Source of the DNA: Arcobacter sp.
GTDB taxonomy: Bacteria > Campylobacterota > Campylobacteria > Campylobacterales > Arcobacteraceae
Reading direction: 5' to 3'
Length of the DNA stretch: 64,000 nt
Assembly: GCA_003252105.1 (NCBI GenBank)
Contig: QKDL01000085.1
Coordinates: forward strand, 1,106-65,105
Shown here: one piece after another, positions 16,991-29,814 of the stretch
How positions within the stretch are numbered: the first letter of the stretch is position 1
Layout of the letters: each line of letters starts with the position of its first letter
Position numbers and translations under genes: made by a program
The notes under the pieces: generated by a model
The model's database searches: none
What the model saw: the letters and a program-made list of their open reading frames with translations, nothing else
Told to the model about the DNA's origin: nothing

Positions 16991-17013
16991 AAAAAAGGCT
17001 TAAAGCCTTTTTT
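16991..17013. terminator. Bidirectional intrinsic terminator
   Basis: AAAAAAGGCT-TAA-AGCCTTTTTT between convergent genes. Confidence 0.75.
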
Positions 17014-20000
17014 AGTGAGAAATCTCACAATTATCAATCTTACCTTTTTTTGATAATACTAATATATAAAATACTGCAGGAATAATTATCAATGTTAAAA
17101 ATGCTGAACTAATCATTCCACCTATCATTGGAGCTGCAATTCTTTGCATAACTTCACTACCTACTCCATCTATATACATAATTGGAATAAGCCCACCTAA
17201 AATCGCAAATAATGTCATAAGTTTTGGTCTTAGTCTCAAAACTGCACCTTTGTAAATTGCATGAGCTATATGATTTTTATCTGGTTGGATACATTTATTT
17301 TTTAACTCAACCATAGCTTCATGTAGATAAACTAACATAACTATTGATGTTTCTGCCGCAACACCTAATAATGCCAAGAACCCAACTATTACAGCAATAG
17401 AGATATTAAAGTTTAGATACTCTAAATAAAACAATCCACCAGTTAAGGCAAATGGCAATGTAAAAAATATGATAATAGTATATGTTAAACTTCTAAGAGC
17501 AAAATATATTAGAATAAATATAATTACAAAAGTTAAAGGGATAATATATGCTAATCTTTTCATAGCTGATTCAAGATATTCACTCTGCCCTGCCCACTCA
17601 TAATAAAAACCTGTAGGAAGTTGTAAATCAACTAAAAGTTTTTGTGCTTCATCTTTATACTCTTTTGCAGAATATTGACTTTTGGGTGTAATATAAATAA
17701 AGTTTACATTTAAAGCCTTTTCAGATTTTATTACAGAAGGACCCTCTTCATATTCTAAATTTGCAAACATACTTAATGGTTGAAATCCAAGTTTGGTTTT
17801 TACTTGTAAGTTATTTAAAACTGTAATATCTTCTCTTTGAGTTGTTTCATATCTAAGTGAAATAGGATATCTTTCAAGACCTGTTAAAAATGTAGATATT
17901 TTAGCACCTGAAACACCTAAAGAGACTGTTGATAAAACATCATTTTTTGTTATTCCGTATCTTGATATCATCTCTTCATCTAAATTGATATTTAAATAAT
18001 ACCCCGAGTTGATTTTATCTGTTGATACAGATAAGGTTTTATCAAATTTTCTTAATTTTTTCTCTATTTTTCCTGCAACTTCTTCTAGTTTTTGGTGATC
18101 ATTTCCATACAGTTTTATTCCAAGAGGAGTTCTAATACCAGTTAGAAGCATATCAATTCTTCCTCTAATTGGATAAGTCCAAGAGTTAATAAGACCTGCA
18201 ACTTTTAGTTTATGATCCATCTCTTCCATTAATTTTTTATATGTCATACCTTCACGCCATTGATCTTCTGGTTTAAAAGTAACAATAGTTTCTATCATAG
18301 CAAGTGGTGCTGGATCGGTTGCAGTATCTGCTCGCCCTGCTTTACCAAATACTGTATCAACTTCTGGAAAAGATTTTAAGATTTTATCTGTTTTTTGAGT
18401 TAACTCTTTTGATAAATCAATACCTATACCATAAGGAGTAACAGGCATATACATAAAAGTTTGTTCATTCATCATAGGCATAAATTCCCAATTTAGTTTT
18501 TTATACGTAGGATATGCTAAAACTAATGTAACTAAAAATATAGCCACAATAAAATATCTAATCTTTAAAGAAAATTTTAATAACGGAGAATAAAGTTTTA
18601 CAAAAAATTTATTTAAAATATTTTTCTCTTCACTTAATATTTTACCTCTTATAAAAAATATCATCAAGATAGGAACAACAGTGATAGAAAGTATTGCCCC
18701 AGCAATCATCGCAAACGATTTTGTAAAAGCAAGTGGCGAAAACAATCTTCCCTCTTGTCCAGTTAAAGCAAAAATTGGTAAAAAAGATACTACAACTAAG
18801 ATAAGAGCAAAAAATATTGGTCGCCCTACTTGTTTTGCAGATTTTATTATGATTTCAATTCTCTCTTTATTTGATATATTCTCTTTACCTTGTAAGTATT
18901 TATGAGCATTTTCAACCATTACAATTGTTGCATCTACCATTGCACCAATTGCAATAGCAATACCACCTAAACTCATAATATTTGAACCCAAACCAAATAG
19001 TTTCATCAATAAAAAAGTTAATAAAACAGTTATTGGAAGAGTTATTATTATAATCAAGGCACTTCTAAAATGAAACAAAAATAAAGAAGTAACTATCATA
19101 ACAATAATTGATTCTTCAATTAGTGTATGTTTTAATGTATATATAGCTTTATCAATCAATGAACTTCTATCATATGTTTCAACAACTTCCACATCATCAA
19201 CTTTTAGTGTTTTAATTTTCTCTTTTACTGCTTTTATAACAGCATAAGGGTTCTCACCATATCTAACTACTACTATTCCACCTACTGTTTCACCTTGACC
19301 ATTTAAATCAGCCATTCCTCTTCTATTTGAAGAAGTTATATTTACCTCAGCAATATCTTTAATCTTTAAAGGTATGTTTCCATTGGTTTTGATTGTAATA
19401 TTTTCAATATCATTTATATTTTTTAAATATGCTCTTGCTTGAATCATGTGTTCAAAACCATTTTCTAAAATAATTCTACCACCTTTTTCATCATTGTTTT
19501 TTGTCAATGCATTTTTAATTTGGTTTATACTAATATCGTATTGAACCATTTTGTCTTGGTTGATTGTAATCTCATAGTTTTTGATAAATCCACCAATTGA
19601 TGCAATCTCACTAACTCCATCTACTCCTAATAGAGCGTATTTATAATAGTAATCTTGTAAAGTTCTTAACTCATCTAAAGATTTTGTATCTGATTTTAAA
19701 GCATATTCGTAAGCCCACCCTACTCCTGTCGCATCTGGACCAATTGCCACATCTACCCCAGCAGGAAATGTTCCTTGAAGTTGTGATAACTGCTCCAAAA
19801 TTCTATTTCTTGAGTCATAAAGGTCTGTACCATCTTTAAATATCACATAAATCAAAGCATTTTGGAAAGAGCTCATAGCTCTTACTGTATCTATATTTGG
19901 TAAACTCATTAGATTTGAGATTAGAGGATATGATACTTGTTCTTCTATAGTTTTTGGACTTTGTCCTGGCCATTTAACCTGTACAATAACCTGAGGAGGT

Positions 20001-20128
20001 GATAAGTCAGGTAAAGCATCCAAACTTGTATTTTTAACTGCCCAAAAAGAAGCTATAGTAAGAATGATTATAGAAAAAAGTATTAAAAACTTATTTCTGA
20101 TACTATATGAGATTACACTTTCTACCAT
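17012..20128 (-). CDS. cusA: CusA/CzcA-family heavy-metal RND permease
   Basis: LDALPDLS, GAMVDATIVMVEN, RLRPKLMT, Met-rich EFMPMMNEQTFMYMP. Confidence 0.9.
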   Translation of the reverse strand: MVESVISYSIRNKFLILFSIIILTIASFWAVKNTSLDALPDLSPPQVIVQVKWPGQSPKTIEEQVSYPLISNLMSLPNIDTVRAMSSFQNALIYVIFKDGTDLYDSRNRILEQLSQLQGTFPAGVDVAIGPDATGVGWAYEYALKSDTKSLDELRTLQDYYYKYALLGVDGVSEIASIGGFIKNYEITINQDKMVQYDISINQIKNALTKNNDEKGGRIILENGFEHMIQARAYLKNINDIENITIKTNGNIPLKIKDIAEVNITSSNRRGMADLNGQGETVGGIVVVRYGENPYAVIKAVKEKIKTLKVDDVEVVETYDRSSLIDKAIYTLKHTLIEESIIVMIVTSLFLFHFRSALIIIITLPITVLLTFLLMKLFGLGSNIMSLGGIAIAIGAMVDATIVMVENAHKYLQGKENISNKERIEIIIKSAKQVGRPIFFALILVVVSFLPIFALTGQEGRLFSPLAFTKSFAMIAGAILSITVVPILMIFFIRGKILSEEKNILNKFFVKLYSPLLKFSLKIRYFIVAIFLVTLVLAYPTYKKLNWEFMPMMNEQTFMYMPVTPYGIGIDLSKELTQKTDKILKSFPEVDTVFGKAGRADTATDPAPLAMIETIVTFKPEDQWREGMTYKKLMEEMDHKLKVAGLINSWTYPIRGRIDMLLTGIRTPLGIKLYGNDHQKLEEVAGKIEKKLRKFDKTLSVSTDKINSGYYLNINLDEEMISRYGITKNDVLSTVSLGVSGAKISTFLTGLERYPISLRYETTQREDITVLNNLQVKTKLGFQPLSMFANLEYEEGPSVIKSEKALNVNFIYITPKSQYSAKEYKDEAQKLLVDLQLPTGFYYEWAGQSEYLESAMKRLAYIIPLTFVIIFILIYFALRSLTYTIIIFFTLPFALTGGLFYLEYLNFNISIAVIVGFLALLGVAAETSIVMLVYLHEAMVELKNKCIQPDKNHIAHAIYKGAVLRLRPKLMTLFAILGGLIPIMYIDGVGSEVMQRIAAPMIGGMISSAFLTLIIIPAVFYILVLSKKGKIDNCEISH

Positions 20129-20137
20129 AATTTATCC

Positions 20138-21139
20138 TTACCAATCTTCATCATCACTACTATATAAACCATTTGTTATAGCATCAGAATCAAGTAAGAA
20201 TAAAGCATTGTTTATAACTTTTTGCCCCTCTTCTACTCCTGATAAAATCTCATATCTATTTGAAGAGATTCTTTTTGCTTCAATCTGAATTGGTTCATAC
20301 TCAGTTTTAGATAGATATCCAAATACAAAAAAGTTATCCCCTTTTCTTAAAACTGCTGTTTTTGGAAGTGTTAACATCTCTTTTTGTTCATATTTGATAT
20401 CAACTTTTGCAAACATATTTGCATATAGTTTTAAGTCTTTGTTAGGAACTATAAATCTTACCTTTACACTTTTTGTTTTTTCATCTACGTCGGGATATAC
20501 AAAATCTACTTTTGAATCAACTGGATTTGTTACACCATCTATATAGATTTTTGCATCCATCCCTTTTTTGATATAAGATAAATCCTTTTGATAAACAGAA
20601 GCTATAAACCATAACTGTTCTAATGAAACCATTTGAAGTAATAACTTCCCTTTTTTAACAAAAGAACCGTCATTTATATTTTTTTGTAAAACAATTCCAC
20701 TTGTTGGACTTAGTACAGGTATATCTTTGATAACATTTTTTGAATTTTTGATTTTATTTATTACAGTGTTATCCAAATCTAAAGATTTTAGTTTTTCAAT
20801 AGAACTTTTAACCAAAGAGTTATTAACTTTTTTACCTATTTGTAACTCTTGTTGAATAGTTACAATATCATCTGAATAAACTTCAAATAAAGTTTCACCC
20901 TTATTGATATATTTGTACTTTTCATTTGCATTTAATTTTGTTACAAAACCATCAAACCTTGTTACAATATCATAAACTTTTCTTTCATCAAAAGATGTTT
21001 GTCCATAAAAACTTTTTGAAGCTGTTACAAGCTCTTTTTTTACTTGGGTAAGCTTTTTATTGAATAGTTGCTCTACTTCAAGAATTTGGGCATTTAAAAG
21101 GGAATAAAAGCCTACTAAAAGAATTAAGATATATCTCAT
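20138..21139 (-). CDS. cusB: CusB-like RND periplasmic adaptor
   Basis: SPTSGIVL, FVYPDVDEKTKSVKVR, ALFLLDSD. Confidence 0.85.
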   Translation of the reverse strand: MRYILILLVGFYSLLNAQILEVEQLFNKKLTQVKKELVTASKSFYGQTSFDERKVYDIVTRFDGFVTKLNANEKYKYINKGETLFEVYSDDIVTIQQELQIGKKVNNSLVKSSIEKLKSLDLDNTVINKIKNSKNVIKDIPVLSPTSGIVLQKNINDGSFVKKGKLLLQMVSLEQLWFIASVYQKDLSYIKKGMDAKIYIDGVTNPVDSKVDFVYPDVDEKTKSVKVRFIVPNKDLKLYANMFAKVDIKYEQKEMLTLPKTAVLRKGDNFFVFGYLSKTEYEPIQIEAKRISSNRYEILSGVEEGQKVINNALFLLDSDAITNGLYSSDDEDW

Positions 21140-22338
21140 TTGTTATCCTTGATAAAATATTTTGATTTACTTAAAGCTTCAAAATAATATTGTTTTTCAT
21201 CTATAGCTTTTAGTTTATATTTAATAATCTCATTTAGATTATTTATCAATGCTTTTGCATCTACATTTTTATAAGAATTTGTGCTGTTATACTCTTCTAA
21301 AACATTTTGAAGTTGTGTGTATTTTGGAAGGATATCGTCCTGCACTATTTTATATGTAATAAAAGAATCATCCATTTTTTGTTGTAAAGTATCAATATTA
21401 TTTTCAAATATTTTTTTCGTATCTTCTAATTTTTGATTTAACTCTATTGTTTTAAATCTTGCTTTTGTTGCTTTTATATTTTCACTACCATAAATAGATA
21501 AAGGGATAGCAACTGATATATTCATATAGTCATTAAACTTATCATCCCTTTGAAAATACGCCACATTTACATTTACATCTGAAAACTTTTTTTGTTTTTC
21601 TAACACTGAAAGATTCTCAAACTTTTTGATTGTTTCATCTATTATTTGAAGTTTTGGATGAGATGAGATATCTTTTGATAAAGTTAATTTTTGTAATTTT
21701 GTGTCTATATCTAAATTATCAATTTTTTCATAAACTATTTGTTCAAGTTTTAATTTAGTTGTATTTAGCTTTGTTTGAAGTGTTTGAGTTTTTAGATTTA
21801 ACTCTTTATACATGATTTGAGAATTAATCACCTGAACTTGAGAAGCTTTATTATATTCATATAATTTTTCTAATAATTGTTCTAATTTTTTTACATTGGT
21901 TTTAAACTCATCAAATAATGCTAATCTTTGTTTGATAAGCTCAATATTGTAAATATATTCATAAATTAAAGCTTTAAATTGAAGTTTTCTATCTTCAACT
22001 TCAAGTTTTGAAATCTCAAAATCGTTTAAAGCTATATCTTTTTGAGTATCTAACTTATCTCCTATTGGAAAAACTTGAGAAAAACCTATAAAATGAGCTT
22101 GCATAGCTTCTTTATCTCTAGTTGACAAATCACCAAACTGTAAATCTGTAGCTCCAAAAGATAGAGTTGGATTTTTCCATTTTGTTGCTAAATCAATCTC
22201 TTGTTTTGCAACATCTAAAGATTTTTCTAAAGTCTTTAATGTTAGGTTCTTTTCATATGCTTTACTTACAACATCATCTATGTTTGTTGCAAACATAGAT
22301 GAAACTAATGTTGTAATTATTAGTGTTTTTTTAAACAT
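21136..22338 (-). CDS. TolC-family outer-membrane efflux protein (CusC/CrdB-like)
   Basis: signal peptide, KWKNPTLSFG, FSQVFPIGDKL; operon position. Confidence 0.75.
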   Translation of the reverse strand: MFKKTLIITTLVSSMFATNIDDVVSKAYEKNLTLKTLEKSLDVAKQEIDLATKWKNPTLSFGATDLQFGDLSTRDKEAMQAHFIGFSQVFPIGDKLDTQKDIALNDFEISKLEVEDRKLQFKALIYEYIYNIELIKQRLALFDEFKTNVKKLEQLLEKLYEYNKASQVQVINSQIMYKELNLKTQTLQTKLNTTKLKLEQIVYEKIDNLDIDTKLQKLTLSKDISSHPKLQIIDETIKKFENLSVLEKQKKFSDVNVNVAYFQRDDKFNDYMNISVAIPLSIYGSENIKATKARFKTIELNQKLEDTKKIFENNIDTLQQKMDDSFITYKIVQDDILPKYTQLQNVLEEYNSTNSYKNVDAKALINNLNEIIKYKLKAIDEKQYYFEALSKSKYFIKDNK

Positions 22339-22718
22339 TATAAATTTACACTTGATCTAATTTTATGAACTTTACCATCTTGAGTTTTAAACATCAAATG
22401 ATACTGCCAAGTTCCACTCATAGAAAAGTTGATTAACATTTTATATTTCCCATCAACTAATTCAGCCTTTGCTGTTTGTTCCATATATGGCATACCAGGC
22501 ATCTCTGGCATAAAAAACTTTACTTTTACTTTTGCATCTGTAATTGTATTTCCATCTTTAGATAAAGTTACTAAAAATGTATTATCTCCAACAACAAGTG
22601 ATTTTTCTGATTTTAAAGATATATCATATCCATCTTTTTTACCATTTAAATCAATTGGCTGAGCACTTAATAAACCAAATGTAAGTAGTAATGCACCTAA
22701 TATTTTGAAAAGTTTCAT
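22338..22718 (-). CDS. Exported FixH/YtkA-like copper-resistance protein (CrdA-like)
   Basis: signal peptide, MPEMPGMPYM, FSMSGTWQY; first gene of the efflux operon. Confidence 0.7.
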   Translation of the reverse strand: MKLFKILGALLLTFGLLSAQPIDLNGKKDGYDISLKSEKSLVVGDNTFLVTLSKDGNTITDAKVKVKFFMPEMPGMPYMEQTAKAELVDGKYKMLINFSMSGTWQYHLMFKTQDGKVHKIRSSVNL

Positions 22719-22783: not shown

Positions 22784-23938
22784 TTATTTAAAAGAGAAAC
22801 TGAAAGTTGTACCTTTTTTTAATTTTGATTTTACATCAATTTTTATAAAGTATTTGTCACATATTTTTTTTACAATATTAAGTCCCAAACCAAAACCACC
22901 ATGTTGATTTGTTGCCCTATAATATCTTCTAAAAATATCATTTAGTTTTTTTTCATCAATACCAATACCAGAATCTTCAACTACTAAAAGATTGTTTCTA
23001 AGTTTTATATTTATTGAACCTTTTGGTTTATTATATTTGATAGCATTTGAAATAATATTGTTAAACACTCTTATAAAGTCATTTCTATCTATTTTAAACT
23101 CAAACTCTTTTAAATCTTTTTCTATAGATATTCTTTTTTTCTCAGCTAAAACCTCAAAATATTTTAACTGCTCCTCTATTATCTCTTTTATATCAACAGT
23201 TTCTAAATCACTATTTTTTTCATTTTCTTCTAAAAATAAATAGGTTAAATCTTTATATATCTCAGATATTTTTTTTACTGATAATTGTATCCTTTCAACC
23301 TGTTTTTTACTCAAAGTTTCACTCTCTGAAGACATCAAAATTGCACTTATTGGAGTATTTAACTCATGTGTAGTATCTTTTATAAAATCGTTTAGCTTTT
23401 CCCTTTCTTCTTTGATAGGTCTTAAAAAAAGTTTTGCCAGATAAAATCCAATTAAAGAGATAAAAGCATAAATAAAAATAAAAAGGAAAAAAATATTTTG
23501 TTTTAGTTTATCTATGGTTTTAAAATATAAATTCTCCTCAATAGCTATATAATAAACACCCAAATGTCCATAGGTTGAATCATTTACTAAAATAAAGTTT
23601 TTATCTTGAACCATAATCTTCTTCGAAAAATCTATTGTTTCATCTAAGTTACCAAAAAGTTTATCTTTGTTTTTATCATAAAAAGAGATTTTATATTCAT
23701 TTGAGTTCATAAATTTCGCACTATCTAATTTCGTACCACTCATATGTGCATAAATGATTTGTGAAGATATATTTGATACTACATTTTCCATCTTTGTTTT
23801 TGTCAAATCAAAATATAGTTTCTTTTCGTTTTGATAATATAATAAGACGATTATCATTAGAAGGATAAAAGAACCCCCTAAATATAACCCAAAAAAACTA
23901 AAAAATGTTTTCTTTTCATTTCTTGTTAAATCTAATAT
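22784..23938 (-). CDS. Sensor histidine kinase (CrdS-like); frame open to 23938, first ATG at 23857
   Basis: DTTHELNTP H-box, NNIISNAIKYN, DSGIGI, GFGLGL; two TM segments only if the start is upstream of 23857. Confidence 0.85.
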   Translation of the reverse strand: MLDLTRNEKKTFFSFFGLYLGGSFILLMIIVLLYYQNEKKLYFDLTKTKMENVVSNISSQIIYAHMSGTKLDSAKFMNSNEYKISFYDKNKDKLFGNLDETIDFSKKIMVQDKNFILVNDSTYGHLGVYYIAIEENLYFKTIDKLKQNIFFLFIFIYAFISLIGFYLAKLFLRPIKEEREKLNDFIKDTTHELNTPISAILMSSESETLSKKQVERIQLSVKKISEIYKDLTYLFLEENEKNSDLETVDIKEIIEEQLKYFEVLAEKKRISIEKDLKEFEFKIDRNDFIRVFNNIISNAIKYNKPKGSINIKLRNNLLVVEDSGIGIDEKKLNDIFRRYYRATNQHGGFGLGLNIVKKICDKYFIKIDVKSKLKKGTTFSFSFK

Positions 23939-23995
23939 AAACTATCCTTTGTACTTTTTTGAAGATTAACATATCTGAACTTAATTATTTTGTTT

Positions 23996-24013
23996 TTCCG
24001 CAATACTTACACA
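23996..24013 (+). promoter_or_regulatory. Direct-repeat box TTCCGCA-N4-TTACACA, 9 nt before -10 TATAGT
   Basis: same geometry as the 22764 box. Confidence 0.6.
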
Positions 24014-24047
24014 TTAAACTATTATAGTTAGAAAAAAAGGAGTTATT

Positions 24048-24260
24048 ATGTTTGAATTTATGAATATGAACATGACAATGTTTCACGGTTTTGCAATGAT
24101 TCTTTTTTGGGGTGTTATAATTTTTATAATTATCTCTATCTTTTCTTCAAGAACAGATTGTAAAAAAGAGGAAACAGCATTGGATATTTTGAAAAAAAGA
24201 TTAGCAAAAGGGGAGATTTCTAAAGAGGAATATGAATCATTGAAAGATTCTTTAAGTTAA
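24048..24260 (+). CDS. Small membrane protein with SHOCT domain
   Basis: Met-rich N-terminus, TM helix, ALDILKKRLAKGEISKEEY. Confidence 0.8.
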   Translation: MFEFMNMNMTMFHGFAMILFWGVIIFIIISIFSSRTDCKKEETALDILKKRLAKGEISKEEYESLKDSLS

Positions 24261-24282
24261 TATGGATATTTTATTGTTAGAT

Positions 24283-24300
24283 TTCCACATTCCTTCCATA
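24283..24300 (+). promoter_or_regulatory. Direct-repeat box TTCCACA-N4-TTCCATA, 9 nt before -10 TAAATT
   Basis: same geometry as the other boxes. Confidence 0.65.
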
Positions 24301-24344
24301 TTAATATTATAAATTTACAATAATAAATAGCATAGGAGAAGATT

Positions 24345-24686
24345 ATGAAAACTACAAAATTACTACTTGCAACAGGCTTTCTAGCTGTTAGCTTATTTGC
24401 ACATAATGGAGAAAATTCATCTAATATGATGAACAATTCGAATAACCATATGAACTCAAATAATCATATGGATGATGATGAGATGATGCACAACACAAAA
24501 CAAAACAATCATATGAATTCTAACAATATGAACAATTCAAACAACCATATGAACTCAAATAATCATATGGATGATGATGAGATGATGCACAACACAAAAC
24601 AAAACAATCATATGAATTCTAACAATATGAACAATTCAAATGATAATATGATGCATGACTCTAAAGGGATGATGCACAATAAATAA
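24345..24686 (+). CDS. Exported Asn/Met/His-rich low-complexity protein
   Basis: signal peptide (VSLFA-H), AGGAG RBS, many HM/MMH motifs. Confidence 0.75.
   Translation: MKTTKLLLATGFLAVSLFAHNGENSSNMMNNSNNHMNSNNHMDDDEMMHNTKQNNHMNSNNMNNSNNHMNSNNHMDDDEMMHNTKQNNHMNSNNMNNSNDNMMHDSKGMMHNK
24429..24640 (+). repeat. 99-bp (33-aa) tandem repeat, two copies plus a partial third
   Basis: units start at 24429, 24528 and 24627 (MNNSNNHMNSNNHMDDDEMMHNTKQNNHMNSNN). Confidence 0.9.
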
Positions 24687-24732
24687 TTATTATAACCTTC
24701 AAGACTAATCTTGAAGGCTATATTTTACTTTA

Positions 24733-24942
24733 CTAACCACTATATTTATCAGCAGAAAATATATCTTTAACTTTATTTAAAGTTTTTACAGATTCAATTT
24801 CATGTTTTTCAATCTTTGAATTTATTTGTTTACAATAATCTGCCATTTTTACCATATTATTATGATTCACCATATTCCCATTTGCAAATAATGTACTTGC
24901 CAATAAACTTGCTCCTAACACTGATATAGTTAGTTTTTTCAT
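24733..24942 (-). CDS. Small exported hypothetical protein
   Basis: signal peptide ASTLFA, AAGGA RBS. Confidence 0.6.
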   Translation of the reverse strand: MKKLTISVLGASLLASTLFANGNMVNHNNMVKMADYCKQINSKIEKHEIESVKTLNKVKDIFSADKYSG

Positions 24943-25051
24943 TTTTCGTCCTTTGTTTTAATTTGATTTATTATAAAGATTTAATATGCACGCAATATGC
25001 AAAAAGCCCTATTTGATGAGGAAGGAATGTGGAATTATCAATTATTAAAAA

Positions 25052-25133
25052 TAAAAAAAGCCCCCAAGATTATCTCTTAAAGGCTTTGTAGGAGGGAGAA
25101 ATGTATAAAAAGAATTAGTTAAAACTAAAACTG
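25052..25133 (-). ncRNA. Candidate ~80-nt sRNA with CU-rich seed in the copA 3' region
   Basis: -10 TATAAT at 25144-25139, UUCUCCCUCCU at 25100-25090, terminator at 25085-25053. Confidence 0.4.
25053..25085 (-). terminator. Intrinsic terminator downstream of copA
   Basis: AGCCUUUAAGA/UCUUGGGGGCU 11-bp stem with G-U pairs valid only on the minus strand, then a U-tract. Confidence 0.75.
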
Positions 25134-25175
25134 AACGTATTATATAATTTTAGTGTGGAGTAATCATGTAGTTTT

Positions 25176-27356
25176 CTATATTTTTTGAATTTTTAATCGT
25201 AAAGAGTTTAATACCACTGTAACTGAACTAAAACTCATTGCAATACCCGCATACATAGGAGTTAGCATCACTCCTAAAAATGGAAATAAAACACCTGCTG
25301 CAATAGGAATTCCTAAACTATTATATGCAAAAGCCCAAAAAAGGTTTTGTTTTACTATTTTCATACTTTGATTTGATAAATTTATACTTTTTATTATTGA
25401 TTGTAAATCATTATTTATCAATATTATATCACCAGCATCTTTACTAATATCAGAACCAGAATTTAAAGTGATACCAATATCTGCTTGTTTTATAGAAGGA
25501 GCATCATTTATCCCATCTCCTACAAACATCACTTTACCCTTTTGTTGTAATTGTTTTATTACCTCATATTTTTGTGTTGGTATCACTTCACTATATACCT
25601 CATCTATATTGAGGACTTTAGCTATTTTCTCTGCTGTAATTTTATTGTCACCTGATAATAATATAGGTTTGATATTTTTATTTTTTAACTCTTTGATTAG
25701 TTCAACTGCATACTCTTTTAATCTATCCTCTAAAGAGAAAAAACCTATTGTTTTTTTATCAATTGCAACTAAAATAACACCATTTGCTTTGTTTAGTTCA
25801 TTTTCATACAATTTTAGATGTTCTTCATCTATATTTACACTATTCTCTTTTAGCAATTTTATATTACCTATTAGTATCTCTTTATTTTCATAAGTTGCCT
25901 TTATCCCCTGCCCTGCTTTTATCTCTACACTCTCAATCTCTAAATCAGTTTTTATATCTTTTTCTTTGATAAAATCTACTATTGCTTTTGAGATAGGATG
26001 TTCACTATAATTTTCAATAGAACCTAAAAGTTTAAAATATTTTTCATCAATATTTGTATTTGATACAGAGATTTCACCTTTTGTTAAAGTTCCTGTTTTA
26101 TCAAATACTGCATACTTAATCTCTTTGATTTGCTCAATAATTGCAGGATTTTTTATCAAAATCCCCTCTTTTGCTCCTCTGCTTACTGAACTTACTATTG
26201 CAATTGGAGTAGCTAATCCTAAAGCACAAGGACAAGAGATAATAAGTACACTAATACTTGCAATAATTGCATTTTGAAAATCCCCTACAAAAAAGCCCCA
26301 AACAATAAAAGTGATAAATGCTATTGCTATAACAGTAGGTACAAATATATTTGCTATTTTGTCTGCAAAACGACTTATTGGTATTTGTTTACTTTGGGCT
26401 GTTTTTAAAAGAGAAATGATTTTTGACAAAGTTGTATCAGATGATTTTTTCAAAACCTCCACTGTTATCACAGCATTTGTATTTACAGTTCCAGAAAGTA
26501 CCTCATCCCCCTCTTTTTTAAATACTGGCAGTGATTCTCCTGTAATCATAGCGGTATCTATATCTGCACACCCTTTTATAATTTTTCCATCTGCTGGGAT
26601 TTTTTCTCCCACTTTTACTAATACCTTATCATAGATTTGTAAACTTGAAGCTAATACAGTTTTTGTTTGATTATTTTCATCTAATAAATTTGCATTTATA
26701 GGGGCTAGATTCATCAGTTTTTTTAAAAAGTCACTTGCTTTTTGTTTTGAGTTTTCTTCTAAATATTTACCCAATAAAAGGAAAGTTATAATAACAGCAG
26801 CACCATCAAAATATAAAAACCTAAGATGTTCTGGAAAAAAATGTGGGAAAACTATCACAAAAAGAGAATAAAAATATGCAGCACTAGTACCCAATGCAAC
26901 CAATACATTCATATCATAATTTTTATTTTTTATAGCACTGTAAGCATGGGTATAAAATCTAGCCCCACAATAAAACTGAACAATAGTTGCCAAAGCTAAA
27001 ATGATATAATCTCTAACTGACTCTTCAAATACTTTAAAAAACATTATTATAAAAATTGCTATTGTAAAACTCAAAGCTGTTTTAAAAATCTTTTTTAATT
27101 TTGAAAACTCTTTTAACTGCTCTTTTTCTAACTCTTCTAAACTATCTTCTACTTTATATCCCAGCTTTTCAATATTTGTAACCAATTTTTCTTTTGTATA
27201 AAGCTGTGTATCTATCTCAAAAATGCCTTCATTTGAGGCAAAACTTACTTTTGAAGAGACTACACCTTTTTGGTTTTTAAAAAATCTTTCAATACCATTT
27301 GAACAATTTACACAGGTCATTCCTGTGATATTAAGATCTATTTTTTTAATAGCCAC
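25176..27356 (-). CDS. copA: Copper-translocating P1B-type ATPase
   Basis: GMTCVNC HMA domain, TGES, CPCALGLATP, DKTGT, GDGINDAP, YN and MSFSS. Confidence 0.93.
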   Translation of the reverse strand: MAIKKIDLNITGMTCVNCSNGIERFFKNQKGVVSSKVSFASNEGIFEIDTQLYTKEKLVTNIEKLGYKVEDSLEELEKEQLKEFSKLKKIFKTALSFTIAIFIIMFFKVFEESVRDYIILALATIVQFYCGARFYTHAYSAIKNKNYDMNVLVALGTSAAYFYSLFVIVFPHFFPEHLRFLYFDGAAVIITFLLLGKYLEENSKQKASDFLKKLMNLAPINANLLDENNQTKTVLASSLQIYDKVLVKVGEKIPADGKIIKGCADIDTAMITGESLPVFKKEGDEVLSGTVNTNAVITVEVLKKSSDTTLSKIISLLKTAQSKQIPISRFADKIANIFVPTVIAIAFITFIVWGFFVGDFQNAIIASISVLIISCPCALGLATPIAIVSSVSRGAKEGILIKNPAIIEQIKEIKYAVFDKTGTLTKGEISVSNTNIDEKYFKLLGSIENYSEHPISKAIVDFIKEKDIKTDLEIESVEIKAGQGIKATYENKEILIGNIKLLKENSVNIDEEHLKLYENELNKANGVILVAIDKKTIGFFSLEDRLKEYAVELIKELKNKNIKPILLSGDNKITAEKIAKVLNIDEVYSEVIPTQKYEVIKQLQQKGKVMFVGDGINDAPSIKQADIGITLNSGSDISKDAGDIILINNDLQSIIKSINLSNQSMKIVKQNLFWAFAYNSLGIPIAAGVLFPFLGVMLTPMYAGIAMSFSSVTVVLNSLRLKIQKI

Positions 27357-27371
27357 AGGTTCCTCCTTTGT

Positions 27372-27575
27372 TTATTTTATTATCTCAAACCCTAGATTAC
27401 TCATCTGTTCAAAAAAAGCTTTTTCTTGTGACTTATCTTTTATCTCAACAGTAACCTCTTTTGGTTCGGTATCAAGATTTACACTTATTTCACCAAACTC
27501 CTCTTCCAATGAGACCTTTATCATATTGGCACAATTACCACATGAAATATTTGCTGCTTTATATGTTTTTTTCAT
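27372..27575 (-). CDS. copZ: Copper chaperone, HMA domain
   Basis: ISCGNCA; directly upstream of copA. Confidence 0.8.
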   Translation of the reverse strand: MKKTYKAANISCGNCANMIKVSLEEEFGEISVNLDTEPKEVTVEIKDKSQEKAFFEQMSNLGFEIIK

Positions 27576-27609
27576 TTTATTATCCTTTTTATTTATTATT
27601 ACACTTTAA

Positions 27610-27627
27610 TGTGTAAATTATATGGAA
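27610..27627 (-). promoter_or_regulatory. Direct-repeat box TTCCATA-N4-TTACACA upstream of copZ-copA
   Basis: same 11-bp period motif. Confidence 0.6.
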
Positions 27628-27689
27628 AAATAAATACTTAAATTTAAAATGATATACTTATTACTTTATATCAATTAACTGGATAAATT

Positions 27690-28346
27690 ATGAAGATTCT
27701 TTTACTTGAAGATGATACTTTACTAAATGAGATTATTGAAGAGTTTTTGCAAGAGCAAAACTATGATGTAGTATCTACTTATGATGGACAAGAAGCTATG
27801 GAAGCAATCTATGGACAAAGTTTTGATTTGCTGCTTCTTGATGTAAATGTCCCTTCAATAAACGGTTTTGAACTTCTTGAAGAGTTAAGAAGAAATAGTA
27901 TAAATATCCCAACCATATATATTACATCTTTACACACCTCAAAAGATATGGAAAAAGGTTTTAAATCAGGAGCTGATGATTATATAAAAAAACCTTTTCA
28001 CTTAAGTGAACTAAAACTTAGAGTTGAAAATATAAAAAGATTAAGACATATAGAAGATAATGGGATGATTAAACTAACAAATGAAATCTTTTATAACTAT
28101 GATACAAAAACTATCACTGTATCCAAAGAGGAACATCATCTATCAAAAACTGAAGCAAAAGTATTTGAATATTTTTTAAAAAATAGAAATAAAACTATTT
28201 CTATTGAGGAGATTTCACTTAACAATTGGATTTATGATGAAGCACCTACTGCTACAACTATAAGAACATATATTAAAAATCTTAGAAAAATTTTAGGTAA
28301 AGATATGATTGAAACTTTAAAAGGAATAGGATACAAAATAAAATAA
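27690..28346 (+). CDS. OmpR-family response regulator (CrdR-like)
   Basis: LLLEDD, LLDVNVP, GADDYIKKPF, winged helix ending KGIGY. Confidence 0.9.
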   Translation: MKILLLEDDTLLNEIIEEFLQEQNYDVVSTYDGQEAMEAIYGQSFDLLLLDVNVPSINGFELLEELRRNSINIPTIYITSLHTSKDMEKGFKSGADDYIKKPFHLSELKLRVENIKRLRHIEDNGMIKLTNEIFYNYDTKTITVSKEEHHLSKTEAKVFEYFLKNRNKTISIEEISLNNWIYDEAPTATTIRTYIKNLRKILGKDMIETLKGIGYKIK

Positions 28347-28407
28347 CCAGTATTGATACTATAAAGTAACAATTTTTTTGTTATAATCTTTAAATAAAGG
28401 GGCATAA

Positions 28408-29814
28408 ATGGTAAATAAAAGTATATTTCGAGAATATGATATTAGAGGAATTGTTGGTTCTGATTTAAATAGTGAATCTGTTAAATTAATCGGTTTTTAT
28501 CTTGGGAAAAAAGTTTATGAACAATTTAAAGAGGATTCATATGTATCAATAGGTTATGATGCAAGAACTCATTCTCCTGAACTTTTTTCATATCTAGCTA
28601 GTGGTTTTAACAAAGCTGGATGTATTGTTTTAAATATGGGAATGGTTGCAACTGGTATAAACTACTTTTCAAACTATCAAACTTTTGAAATTGAGGGTAA
28701 AAAAGTACAACCAAATACTTCTGTTATGATTACAGGAAGCCATAACCCAAGTGAATACAATGGATTTAAAATCACTTTTGATAAAAAACCTTTTTTTGGT
28801 GAAGATATCTACTCTTTAGGGGATGAAATTCTTGCAAATCCAATTGAAATTGAAGACAACGACAAAAACTATGCAATAGATGTAAAATCTTTATATATAG
28901 ATTATATTGTAAATGAGTTTTCATTTTTAAAAGGGATGAAACAAAAGTTTGTAATAGATTGTGGTAATGGTGTAGCTGATACTGTTTTAACAACTATTTT
29001 AGACAAACTAGAACTAAATTATGATGGTTTATTTTGTACACCAGATGGTACCTTCCCAAATCATCACCCAGATCCAAGTGAAGAGAAAAACCTAAAAGAT
29101 ATTATGGAAGCTTTAAAAGGAGATTACGAGTTTGGTTTTGCATACGATGGAGATGCCGATAGAATCGCATTCTTAACAAAGAAATACAATGTAAAAGGTG
29201 ATATCATGGCATTGCTTTTTGCAAAAACTATGACTAACCCTACTATTATTGGAGAGGTAAAATGTACACAAGTAATGTATGACCTTATCAATGAAAAAGG
29301 GACAGCAGTTATGTACAAAACTGGTCACTCAAATTTAAAAGTAAAACTAAAAGAGTTAAATGCTGATTTAGCAGCAGAAGTTTCAGGACATATTTTCTTC
29401 AACGATAGATATTTTGGATTCGATGATGCGATATATGCAACTTTTAGATTACTTGAACTAATCTATAATAAAATGGATATAGATAAAGAGATAGATGCCT
29501 TACCTAAAACATTTTCAACAGAAGAGATAAAAGTAAAAACAACAGAAGAGGAAAAATTCTTACTGATTGATAAAGTAAAAGAGCTTTTAAAAAACCCACC
29601 AGCAGGATTCCCACATATCAAAGATATTATTGATGTTGATGGTGTAAGAGTTATTTTTGACGAAGGTTGGGGACTTGTAAGAGCTTCAAATACAACTCCT
29701 GTATTAGTAACAAGATTCGAATCTACAAATGAAACAAAAGCAAAAGAGTATGAAGAGTGTTTAAACTCATTAATTCAAACGGCAAAAGATGAACTTAATA
29801 GCGCTTCAAACTAA
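28408..29814 (+). CDS. Phosphomannomutase/phosphoglucomutase
   Basis: FREYDIRG, TGSHNP, YDGDADR, RASNT. Confidence 0.92.
   Translation: MVNKSIFREYDIRGIVGSDLNSESVKLIGFYLGKKVYEQFKEDSYVSIGYDARTHSPELFSYLASGFNKAGCIVLNMGMVATGINYFSNYQTFEIEGKKVQPNTSVMITGSHNPSEYNGFKITFDKKPFFGEDIYSLGDEILANPIEIEDNDKNYAIDVKSLYIDYIVNEFSFLKGMKQKFVIDCGNGVADTVLTTILDKLELNYDGLFCTPDGTFPNHHPDPSEEKNLKDIMEALKGDYEFGFAYDGDADRIAFLTKKYNVKGDIMALLFAKTMTNPTIIGEVKCTQVMYDLINEKGTAVMYKTGHSNLKVKLKELNADLAAEVSGHIFFNDRYFGFDDAIYATFRLLELIYNKMDIDKEIDALPKTFSTEEIKVKTTEEEKFLLIDKVKELLKNPPAGFPHIKDIIDVDGVRVIFDEGWGLVRASNTTPVLVTRFESTNETKAKEYEECLNSLIQTAKDELNSASN

What the first reader, a model, noticed from the sequence alone, without database searches (positions are those of the whole stretch)
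25052..25171. Candidate copper-regulated sRNA with an anti-Shine-Dalgarno seed in the copA 3' region
Seen on the minus strand: CTACATG-N4-CTCCACA, 9 nt, then TATAAT, the same geometry as the Cu-gene boxes. About 80 nt follow, with no coding ORF, containing single-stranded UUCUCCCUCCU just before an 11-bp G-U-rich terminator. Known: Campylobacterota lack Hfq and use C/U-rich seeds against G-rich leaders (RepG, CJnc190). Inferred: an independently promoted sRNA that extends the Cu regulon post-transcriptionally.
Basis: partly seen in the sequence, partly recalled or inferred. Interest (0 to 1): 0.7.

Follow-up and report, generated by a model that had tools for sequence, protein, structure and literature searches.

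The report
Copper-cluster small RNA gene after copA
Just after the copper-pump gene copA lies a probable ~80-base regulatory RNA gene with its own regulator-dependent promoter, a ribosome-binding-site-complementary stretch and a terminator; it recurs beside copper genes in nine related bacteria, but its expression and targets remain untested.

Summary
On the minus strand, 5 nt after the copA stop codon, lie CTACATG-N4-CTCCACA (25171-25154), a 9-nt spacer, TATAAT (25144-25139), about 80 nt without an ORF, an unpaired UUUCUCCCUCCU (25101-25090), and a 13-bp terminator containing three G-U pairs (25087-25057).

A covariance-model search found one copy in each of nine Arcobacteraceae genomes from four genera. 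All nine keep half-site-N4-half-site, exactly 9 nt, exactly TATAAT, a 78-93 nt RNA with a 5' hairpin, an unpaired CUCC(U) and a covarying terminator.

The element always sits among copper genes, but not always behind copA. In one genome cusA has its own terminator before the box. In another the upstream gene is divergent. Both cases require an independent promoter.

In this genome the box ranks 6th among box-plus-(-10) sites. The other top sites precede copper or periplasmic-thiol genes.

My verdict is a new, Rfam-absent small RNA (sRNA) gene, probably driven by the cluster's OmpR/PhoB-type regulator. It shares its terminator with copA and probably masks ribosome-binding sites. No conserved target was found, and copper control is inferred. 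The kind is known (two-component-system-controlled, anti-SD sRNA); this is a new member.

The parts
25176..25178 (-). copA stop codon (TAG). copA is 25176-27356, a copper-translocating P-type ATPase.
   Evidence: (TIGR01511 598 bits, cut-off 397)
25154..25171 (-). Response-regulator box: direct repeat CTACATG-ATTA-CTCCACA with an 11-bp period. It spans about -39 to -22 relative to the predicted start.
   Evidence: 18.2 bits, 6th best box+(-10) site in the genome. Same geometry in 9/9 homologues.
25139..25144 (-). -10 hexamer TATAAT, exactly 9 nt after the second half-site
   Evidence: Invariant hexamer and spacing in 9/9 homologues, while the spacer sequence itself diverges.
25132..25132 (-). 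Predicted transcription start (A, 7th nt after the -10). Inferred, not measured.
   Evidence: In the homologue sequences, a purine at this position in 8/9 (A in 7, G in one; C in G124, whose next base is A).
25111..25132 (-). 5' hairpin (AGUUUUAGUUUUAACUAAUUCU)
   Evidence: A 5' hairpin is present in all homologues, but its sequence is lineage-specific.
25088..25110 (-). Single-stranded linker holding the anti-SD stretch UUUCUCCCUCCU (25101-25090), preceded by CAU
   Evidence: P unpaired 1.0. CUCC(U) conserved and mostly unpaired in 9/9.
25047..25087 (-). Intrinsic terminator: 13-bp stem with three G-U pairs, 5-nt loop, U tail. Shared with copA.
   Evidence: Covariation: 94% paired, 5/12 pairs changed on both sides, 0/500 shuffles reach the score. 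The G-U pairs work only on this strand.

Best explanation
This is a small-RNA gene of about 81 nt (about 25132 to about 25052, minus strand). It sits immediately behind copA and uses the same terminator.

Promoter: it is activator-dependent. Two 7-nt half-sites with an 11-bp period lie across the -35 region, 9 nt upstream of a perfect TATAAT, as in a Pho-box promoter. Related boxes precede copZA, the YtkA-cusCBA operon and small secreted His/Met-rich proteins in the same cluster. The OmpR/PhoB-family regulator (27690-28346) and kinase (22784-23857) that flank the cluster therefore most likely switch the RNA on together with the copper-efflux genes.

RNA and action: the RNA has a 5' hairpin, an unpaired C/U-rich stretch complementary to Shine-Dalgarno sequences, and a terminator hairpin. 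It most likely pairs with ribosome-binding sites of target mRNAs and blocks translation initiation without Hfq. Because copA has no terminator of its own here, the same sequence is also the copA 3'UTR, so processing of copA mRNA could add to the pool.

Shown: the sequence anatomy, the conservation of the promoter geometry, the covarying terminator, the unpaired CUCC, and the copper-gene neighbourhood.

Inferred: transcription, copper induction through this regulator, base-pairing as the mechanism, and the targets.
For: (1) Nine homologues, one full copy per genome, in four genera of Arcobacteraceae. All have box-N4-box, a spacer of exactly 9, exactly TATAAT, RNAs of 78-93 nt, a 5' hairpin, unpaired CUCC and a terminator.

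(2) The context varies but always involves copper genes. The element follows copA in five genomes and a Cys-rich gene downstream of copA in G189. In G124 it follows cusA, and a separate cusA terminator hairpin lies between the stop codon and the box. In G093 it lies between a divergent haem-binding gene and a convergent multicopper oxidase, so no co-directional upstream gene exists.

(3) The terminator helix covaries. Its G-U pairs fit only the proposed strand.

(4) A genome-wide matrix scan ranks the box 6th. Other top sites lie 52-63 nt before the start codons of YtkA-cus, a His-rich protein, a YceI + MNIO (PF05114) + DUF2063 operon, DsbB, a SHOCT-like gene and a DsbA-like gene.

(5) G002 lost copZA and the genes on the other side but kept the element. 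It shows 0 changes in the 57 nt from the -10 to the terminator, against about 9% divergence in the flanks. Its stem changes preserve pairing.

(6) No ORF is present, and there is no Rfam match.
Against: The box here is the weakest of the cluster; the distal half-site CTACATG matches the consensus poorly.

The regulator is a generic OmpR/PhoB protein, scoring 94.8 bits against a cut-off of 279 for the heavy-metal regulator subfamily. Copper sensing is therefore inferred from the target genes alone.

Only CUCCU is invariant in the proposed seed, so it would match any strong SD.

The best predicted target is a glycosyltransferase-like gene (-24.3 kcal/mol). It loses two of its pairs in G002, whose RNA body up to the terminator is identical, and DNA search found no matching locus in G014, G013 or G007. 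No local gene is a convincing target.

The element is absent from most genomes of the family that have copA (10 of 184 hit). The two closest named copA loci lack it.
Confidence: 0.6

Rival explanations
1. It is only the copA 3'UTR and terminator. The box and TATAAT are not a working promoter. Any small RNA arises solely by processing of copA mRNA, as with CpxQ.
For: The box begins 5 nt after the copA stop with no terminator in between, so copA transcripts must run through it. The distal half-site is weak. TATAAT-like hexamers are common in this AT-rich DNA: 41 promoter-like sites in 8 kb against 52 expected.
Against: TATAAT and the 9-nt spacing are invariant in 9/9 genomes across four genera, while neighbouring bases diverge. 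In G124 a cusA terminator precedes the box. In G093 the upstream gene is divergent. The other copA genes inspected in the genus (e.g. G015, G012, G019) end with a plain hairpin directly after the stop.
Confidence: 0.12
2. It is a leader or attenuator. The promoter serves the next co-directional gene (the 69-aa secreted protein, 24942-24733), and the hairpin is a conditional terminator.
For: In G000, G013 and G189 a small secreted-protein gene follows on the same strand. In G007 the kinase gene follows.
Against: In G000, G013 and G189 the downstream small-protein gene has its own box promoter. In G014, G124 and G093 the next gene is convergent, so there is nothing to lead into. No alternative anti-terminator fold is evident.
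Confidence: 0.05
3. The functional strand is the plus strand. The reverse complement of the seed is a strong SD followed by ATG, starting a tiny ORF (MYKKN*).
For: GGAGGGAGAAATG on the plus strand. An ATG follows the SD complement in 7 of 9 homologues (my reading of the sequences).
Against: The tiny ORFs are 2-10 codons long and not conserved, and two genomes lack the ATG. The SD-ATG spacing is 2-5 nt in most, which is too short. The hairpin's G-U pairs become A-C mismatches on the plus strand. No conserved plus-strand promoter is present.
Confidence: 0.03
4. It is a real RNA that does not act by specific pairing with mRNAs. It could be a decoy resembling the 3' tail of 16S rRNA, or a protein-binding RNA.
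For: G013 reads AUCACCUCCUUU and G007 AUCACUCCUUUU, which closely resemble the anti-SD tail of 16S rRNA as I know it. Only the generic CUCCU is conserved. No conserved specific target was found.
Against: There is no direct evidence for it. Generic anti-SD seeds with a few specific targets are usual for C-rich sRNAs such as RsaE/RoxS and RepG (established knowledge).
Confidence: 0.1

Closest known systems
RsaE/RoxS of Firmicutes (C-rich sRNA controlled by the two-component systems SrrAB/ResDE)
   Same: A small RNA with unpaired C-rich motifs that pair with Shine-Dalgarno regions. It is transcribed under a two-component regulator and needs no strict Hfq. It has a hairpin - linker - terminator layout.
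   Different: There is no sequence or Rfam relationship. The phylum and the signal differ. The motif here is CUCCU in one linker (two copies in G093), not several UCCC loops.
RepG and NikS of Helicobacter pylori (Campylobacterota sRNAs)
   Same: Hfq-less Campylobacterota. RepG uses a C/U-rich stretch against a G-rich leader. NikS is an sRNA whose transcription is set by a metal regulator (NikR).
   Different: RepG's seed lies in its terminator loop, and it is not known to be under a two-component system. NikS is repressed by Ni-NikR and varies through a T-repeat. No homology was detected, and the family was not found outside Arcobacteraceae in 401 genomes of the order.
3'UTR sRNAs with their own promoter (DapZ, MicL) and processed ones (CpxQ) of enterobacteria
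   Same: It lies at the 3' end of a protein gene and shares that gene's terminator. Its regulation is tied to the same stress response as the host gene.
   Different: The promoter lies just after the stop codon rather than inside the coding region. In two genomes the RNA is not in any 3'UTR. It is not Hfq-dependent, because the group lacks Hfq (established knowledge).
Pho-box type (class II) OmpR/PhoB promoters, e.g. pstS; OmpR-controlled OmrA/B, PhoP-controlled MgrR
   Same: Two direct repeats of 7 conserved + 4 variable bases replace the -35 and end 9-10 bp before the -10. The regulator is OmpR/PhoB family. An sRNA is a regulon member.
   Different: The half-site consensus YT(C/A)CA(C/T)A differs from the Pho box and from CusR/CopR boxes. 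The regulator is below every NCBIfam equivalog cut-off.

Membership tests
Any described RNA family (Rfam 15) | Match to a covariance model | tested here: not met
   No relevant hit at E<=1 in window 23500-28500, and none at E<=0.1 in five homologous loci.
Intrinsic (Rho-independent) terminator | G+C-containing stem-loop followed by a U run, kept by compensatory changes | tested here: met
   Covariation: 94.4% of cells paired, 5/12 pairs changed on both sides, 0/500 shuffles reach the score, and slid controls are much lower.
OmpR/PhoB-type activator-dependent (class II) promoter | Direct-repeat half-sites with a 10-11 bp period overlapping -35, at a fixed distance from a -10 hexamer | tested here: met
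   7+4+7 nt box, 9-nt spacer and TATAAT in 9/9 homologues. The same layout occurs at the copZ, His-rich-protein and YtkA-cus promoters.
OmpR/PhoB-type activator-dependent (class II) promoter | Binding of the phosphorylated regulator and activator-dependent transcription | not testable with these tools
   Needs EMSA or footprinting and a regulator mutant.
CusR/CopR heavy-metal response regulator regulon | The regulator belongs to the cztR/silR/copR subfamily (TIGR01387) | tested here: not met
   94.8 bits against a cut-off of 279.2. The best hits are PhoB-like, all below their cut-offs. The copper link rests on the target genes only.
Trans-acting base-pairing sRNA | Own transcription start and a stable short transcript | not testable with these tools
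Indirect support comes from stand-alone contexts in G124 and G093.
Trans-acting base-pairing sRNA | Conserved, accessible seed | tested here: met
   CUCC(U) is present in 9/9 at RNA positions 29-45, with P(unpaired) of 0.95-1.0 in seven, 0.76 in G189 and 0.51 in G188. Only 5 nt are invariant.
Trans-acting base-pairing sRNA | Conserved complementary target site | tested here: inconclusive
   The top TIR hit, at -24.3 kcal/mol, loses two pairs in G002. No local target was found. A full comparative prediction was not possible.
3'UTR-derived sRNA with own promoter (type I) | Shares its terminator with the upstream mRNA and has an internal promoter | tested here: met
   In G000 there is no terminator between the copA stop and the box, and only one terminator follows. 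This is not universal: G124 and G093 are free-standing.

The most novel reading that the evidence does not exclude
The RNA may be a stress-induced mimic of the 16S rRNA anti-Shine-Dalgarno tail; in two species it reads AUCACCUCCUUU / AUCACUCCUUUU. Made when the copper two-component system fires, it would compete with ribosomes for strong ribosome-binding sites in general. It would then act as a global translational brake during copper stress rather than as a regulator of a few targets.
Probability: 0.1. Interest if true: 0.8.

Novelty: new member of a known kind. Interest (0 to 1): 0.55.

Why it matters
Very few sRNAs are known in Campylobacterota outside Helicobacter and Campylobacter. I found no report of a copper-regulon sRNA in Arcobacter-like bacteria.

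If real, this family adds a post-transcriptional arm to a copper and periplasmic-thiol stress regulon in Hfq-less bacteria. It also provides a compact, well-defined activator promoter (box-N9-TATAAT) for studying an uncharacterised OmpR/PhoB-type copper system.

It is also a clear case of an sRNA gene that moves between the 3' ends of different copper genes. That bears on how 3'UTR sRNAs originate.

Tried and rejected
- Exact-box search with mismatches in the window: not enriched on its own.
- Rfam: nothing.
- Whole-genome duplex scan with large windows: dominated by noisy hits inside coding regions.
- TIR-restricted scan. It gave a glycosyltransferase-like gene, nuoJ, ccoN and a urease subunit as top hits. 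The first is not conserved in pairing and DNA search found no matching locus for it in three other carriers. The others look like simply strong SDs.
- Local copper-cluster genes as targets in nine loci: no consistent hit.
- Small ORF on either strand: rejected. There is no ATG on the RNA strand in G000, and the plus-strand mini-ORFs are not conserved.
- Multicopy repeat or mobile element: rejected, one full copy per genome. G189 carries only a local duplication of seed + terminator + next promoter.
- Closest named copA loci (two Arcobacteraceae MAGs): no element.
- Weak hits (G005, G052, G085, G146, G096): they share only a CU-rich stretch plus terminator and lack the promoter, so they were not counted.

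Full report
**Observation**

The finding lies on the minus strand, directly after the stop codon of a 726-aa P-type ATPase (25176-27356). That protein passes the copper-translocating ATPase model TIGR01511.

Read 5' to 3', the features are:

| Feature | Sequence | Coordinates |
|---|---|---|
| copA stop | TAG | 25178-25176 |
| Distal half-site | CTACATG | 25171-25165 |
| Gap | ATTA | 25164-25161 |
| Proximal half-site | CTCCACA | 25160-25154 |
| Spacer (9 nt) | CTAAAATTA | 25153-25145 |
| -10 hexamer | TATAAT | 25144-25139 |
| C/U stretch | UUUCUCCCUCCU | 25101-25090 |
| Terminator stem-loop | 13-bp stem | 25087-25057, then a U tail |

- About 80 nt follow the -10, with no ATG on that strand.
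- No ORF of 30 aa or more overlaps 25052-25171 on either strand.
- The terminator scan and the fold agree: 13 pairs, three of them G-U, MFE -19 kcal/mol, z = -3.0.
- The C/U stretch is unpaired, with P = 1.0.

**Surroundings**

The window holds a copper cluster:

| Gene | Coordinates | Strand |
|---|---|---|
| YtkA-like gene plus cusCBA | 17012-22718 | - |
| Histidine kinase | 22784-23857 | - |
| SHOCT-like small protein | 24048-24260 | + |
| His/Met/Asn-rich secreted protein | 24345-24686 | + |
| 69-aa secreted protein | 24733-24942 | - |
| copA | 25176-27356 | - |
| copZ | 27372-27575 | - |
| OmpR/PhoB-family response regulator (divergent) | 27690-28346 | + |

- A loose half-site direct-repeat pattern hits exactly five places in the 64-kb window, all in this cluster. 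They lie upstream of YtkA-cus, the His-rich gene, the 69-aa gene and copZ, plus the candidate itself.
- I tested the box with a half-site matrix over the whole 3.02-Mb genome. Only 33 sites combine a box of at least 11 bits with a TAnnnT 8-10 nt downstream.
- The candidate scores 18.2 bits and ranks 6th. It is one of only three such sites with a perfect TATAAT.
- The matrix was trained on the cluster's own sites, so those ranks are partly circular.
- The independent high-scoring sites are informative. They sit 52-63 nt before the start codons of:
  - a YceI + Cys-rich precursor + MNIO enzyme (PF05114) + DUF2063 operon;
  - a DsbB gene;
  - a DsbA-like thioredoxin gene.
- This is a coherent copper and periplasmic-thiol regulon. 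The candidate is one of only two top-ranked sites with no ORF behind it (the other is the orphan box at C29:15741).

**Relatives**

- BLAST against 40 relatives showed that most copA 3' ends match only up to the stop codon. Two species matched through the element.
- In the species without the element that I inspected (e.g. G015, G012, G019), copA is followed directly by a plain terminator hairpin.
- A covariance model built from five sequences, then rebuilt from nine, found one full copy in each of nine genomes of the family. The other four are in three further genera.
- Nothing was found outside the family in 401 genomes of the order.
- Nothing was found in the two nearest named copA loci, both Arcobacteraceae MAGs.
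- All nine carry the same plan:
  - half-site, N4, half-site;
  - a spacer of exactly 9 nt whose sequence is not conserved;
  - exactly TATAAT;
  - an A at about +7;
  - an RNA of 78-93 nt with a lineage-specific 5' hairpin;
  - an unpaired CUCC(U) at RNA positions 29-45;
  - a terminator.
- The terminator helix covaries: 94% of cells are paired, 5 of 12 pairs changed on both sides, no shuffle of 500 reaches the score, and slid controls are far lower.
- Its G-U pairs exist only on the proposed strand.

**Evidence for an independent transcription unit**

The genomic context differs between genomes but always involves copper genes.

| Genome(s) | Position of the element |
|---|---|
| G000, G014, G013, G007, G188 | Directly after copA |
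| G189 | After a Cys-rich 145-aa gene that follows copA |
| G124 | After cusA, but a separate cusA terminator hairpin lies between the stop codon and the box |
| G093 | Between a divergently transcribed haem-binding gene and a convergent multicopper oxidase |

- In G124 and G093 no upstream transcript can supply the RNA, so the conserved box and TATAAT must be its promoter.
- In G014, G124 and G093 the next gene is convergent, which rules out a leader function.
- G002 is the nearest relative, with 91% nucleotide identity in the flanks.
  - It has lost copZ and nearly all of copA (27558-25215) and also 25027-24029, yet kept the element.
  - It shows no change in the 57 nt from the -10 to the terminator.
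  - Its stem substitutions only preserve pairing.

**Mechanism**

- The box spans about -39 to -22 and ends 9 nt before the -10. This is the layout of Pho-box promoters activated by OmpR/PhoB-family regulators (established knowledge). Such a regulator and its kinase flank the cluster.
- I infer that this two-component system activates the RNA together with the efflux genes.
- The regulator is not a member of the CusR/CopR subfamily by NCBIfam (94.8 bits against 279). Copper sensing is therefore inferred from the regulated genes only.
- The unpaired CUCCU, usually preceded by CAU, is complementary to a Shine-Dalgarno sequence. The likeliest action is occlusion of ribosome-binding sites, as with C-rich sRNAs in other Hfq-independent systems.
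- In G000 the RNA is also the copA 3'UTR, so two routes of biogenesis are possible.

**Targets**

- A scan of 3720 crude translation-initiation regions gave the following top hits:

| Predicted target | Duplex energy (kcal/mol) |
|---|---|
| Glycosyltransferase-like gene (18 bp over SD and AUG) | -24.3 |
| nuoJ | -22.1 |
| ccoN | -19.0 |
| Urease subunit | -18.4 |

- The first loses two pairs in G002 although that genome's RNA body up to the terminator is identical, and DNA search found no matching locus in three other carriers.
- No local cluster gene pairs consistently across species.
- The targets are unknown, and the generic nature of the seed is the weakest part of the functional model.

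**What could not be done**

No transcription start or transcript was therefore observed, and every statement about expression is inferred.

**Comparison and novelty**

- No Rfam family matches.
- Literature searches found no copper-linked sRNA in Arcobacter-like bacteria.
- The element works like known two-component-system-controlled anti-SD sRNAs (RsaE/RoxS, OmrA/B, MgrR). In this genome it also resembles 3'UTR sRNAs that have their own promoter.
- It is a new family of a known kind.

**Confidence**

| Claim | Confidence |
|---|---|
| Real, independently promoted RNA | about 0.75 |
| Controlled by the cluster's regulator | about 0.6 |
| Acts by SD pairing | about 0.5 |

Noticed in passing
L002 (G002:C2) 1386-1700, against window 24029-27559: The nearest relative lacks copZ plus nearly all of copA, and also lacks the three small genes on the other side of the element. 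It keeps the last ~39 nt of copA, the whole RNA element, and the copZ promoter now fused upstream of it.
   Followed up: partly
Genome contig C33:4698-7230 (outside the window): A perfect CTACACA-N4-CTACACA box + N9 + TAAAAT precedes an operon: YceI, a 109-aa secreted protein with three CGAGKCG motifs, an MNIO enzyme (PF05114) and DUF2063. This is a bufferin-like RiPP operon, apparently in the same regulon.
   Followed up: partly
Genome contig C29:15741-15800 (outside the window): An equally strong box (CTACACATTAACTACACA, N8, TATATT) has no ORF within 4 kb downstream. A short hairpin (CTAGAGGATGTTTATCCTCTA) follows immediately. It could be another non-coding regulon member or a relic.
   Followed up: no
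Genome contigs C9:3509 and C93 (minus strand, about 10 kb from the contig's high-coordinate end): Boxes with the same geometry precede a DsbA-like thioredoxin gene and a DsbB gene. The C9 box (CTACATGATTACTACACG) matches the candidate's box at 16 of 18 positions. This suggests disulfide-bond formation is co-regulated with copper efflux.
   Followed up: partly
L038 (G189:C40) 1000-1720; also the G188 locus: There is a local ~500-bp duplication: the seed + terminator and the following four-half-site promoter occur twice. As a result, a 77-aa secreted-protein mRNA ends with a copy of the sRNA's 3' half.
   Followed up: partly
L034 (G093:C13:23564-23678): This is a second RNA-like locus in G093. 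It shares the hairpin - CU-rich - terminator body of the element but has a different upstream region. It may be a paralogue under other control.
   Followed up: no
window 25020-25034 (-) and homologous sites in G003, G013, G188, G189: The promoter of the 69-77-aa secreted Met/His-rich protein carries two half-sites here. In relatives it carries four tandem half-sites with an 11-bp period.
   Followed up: no
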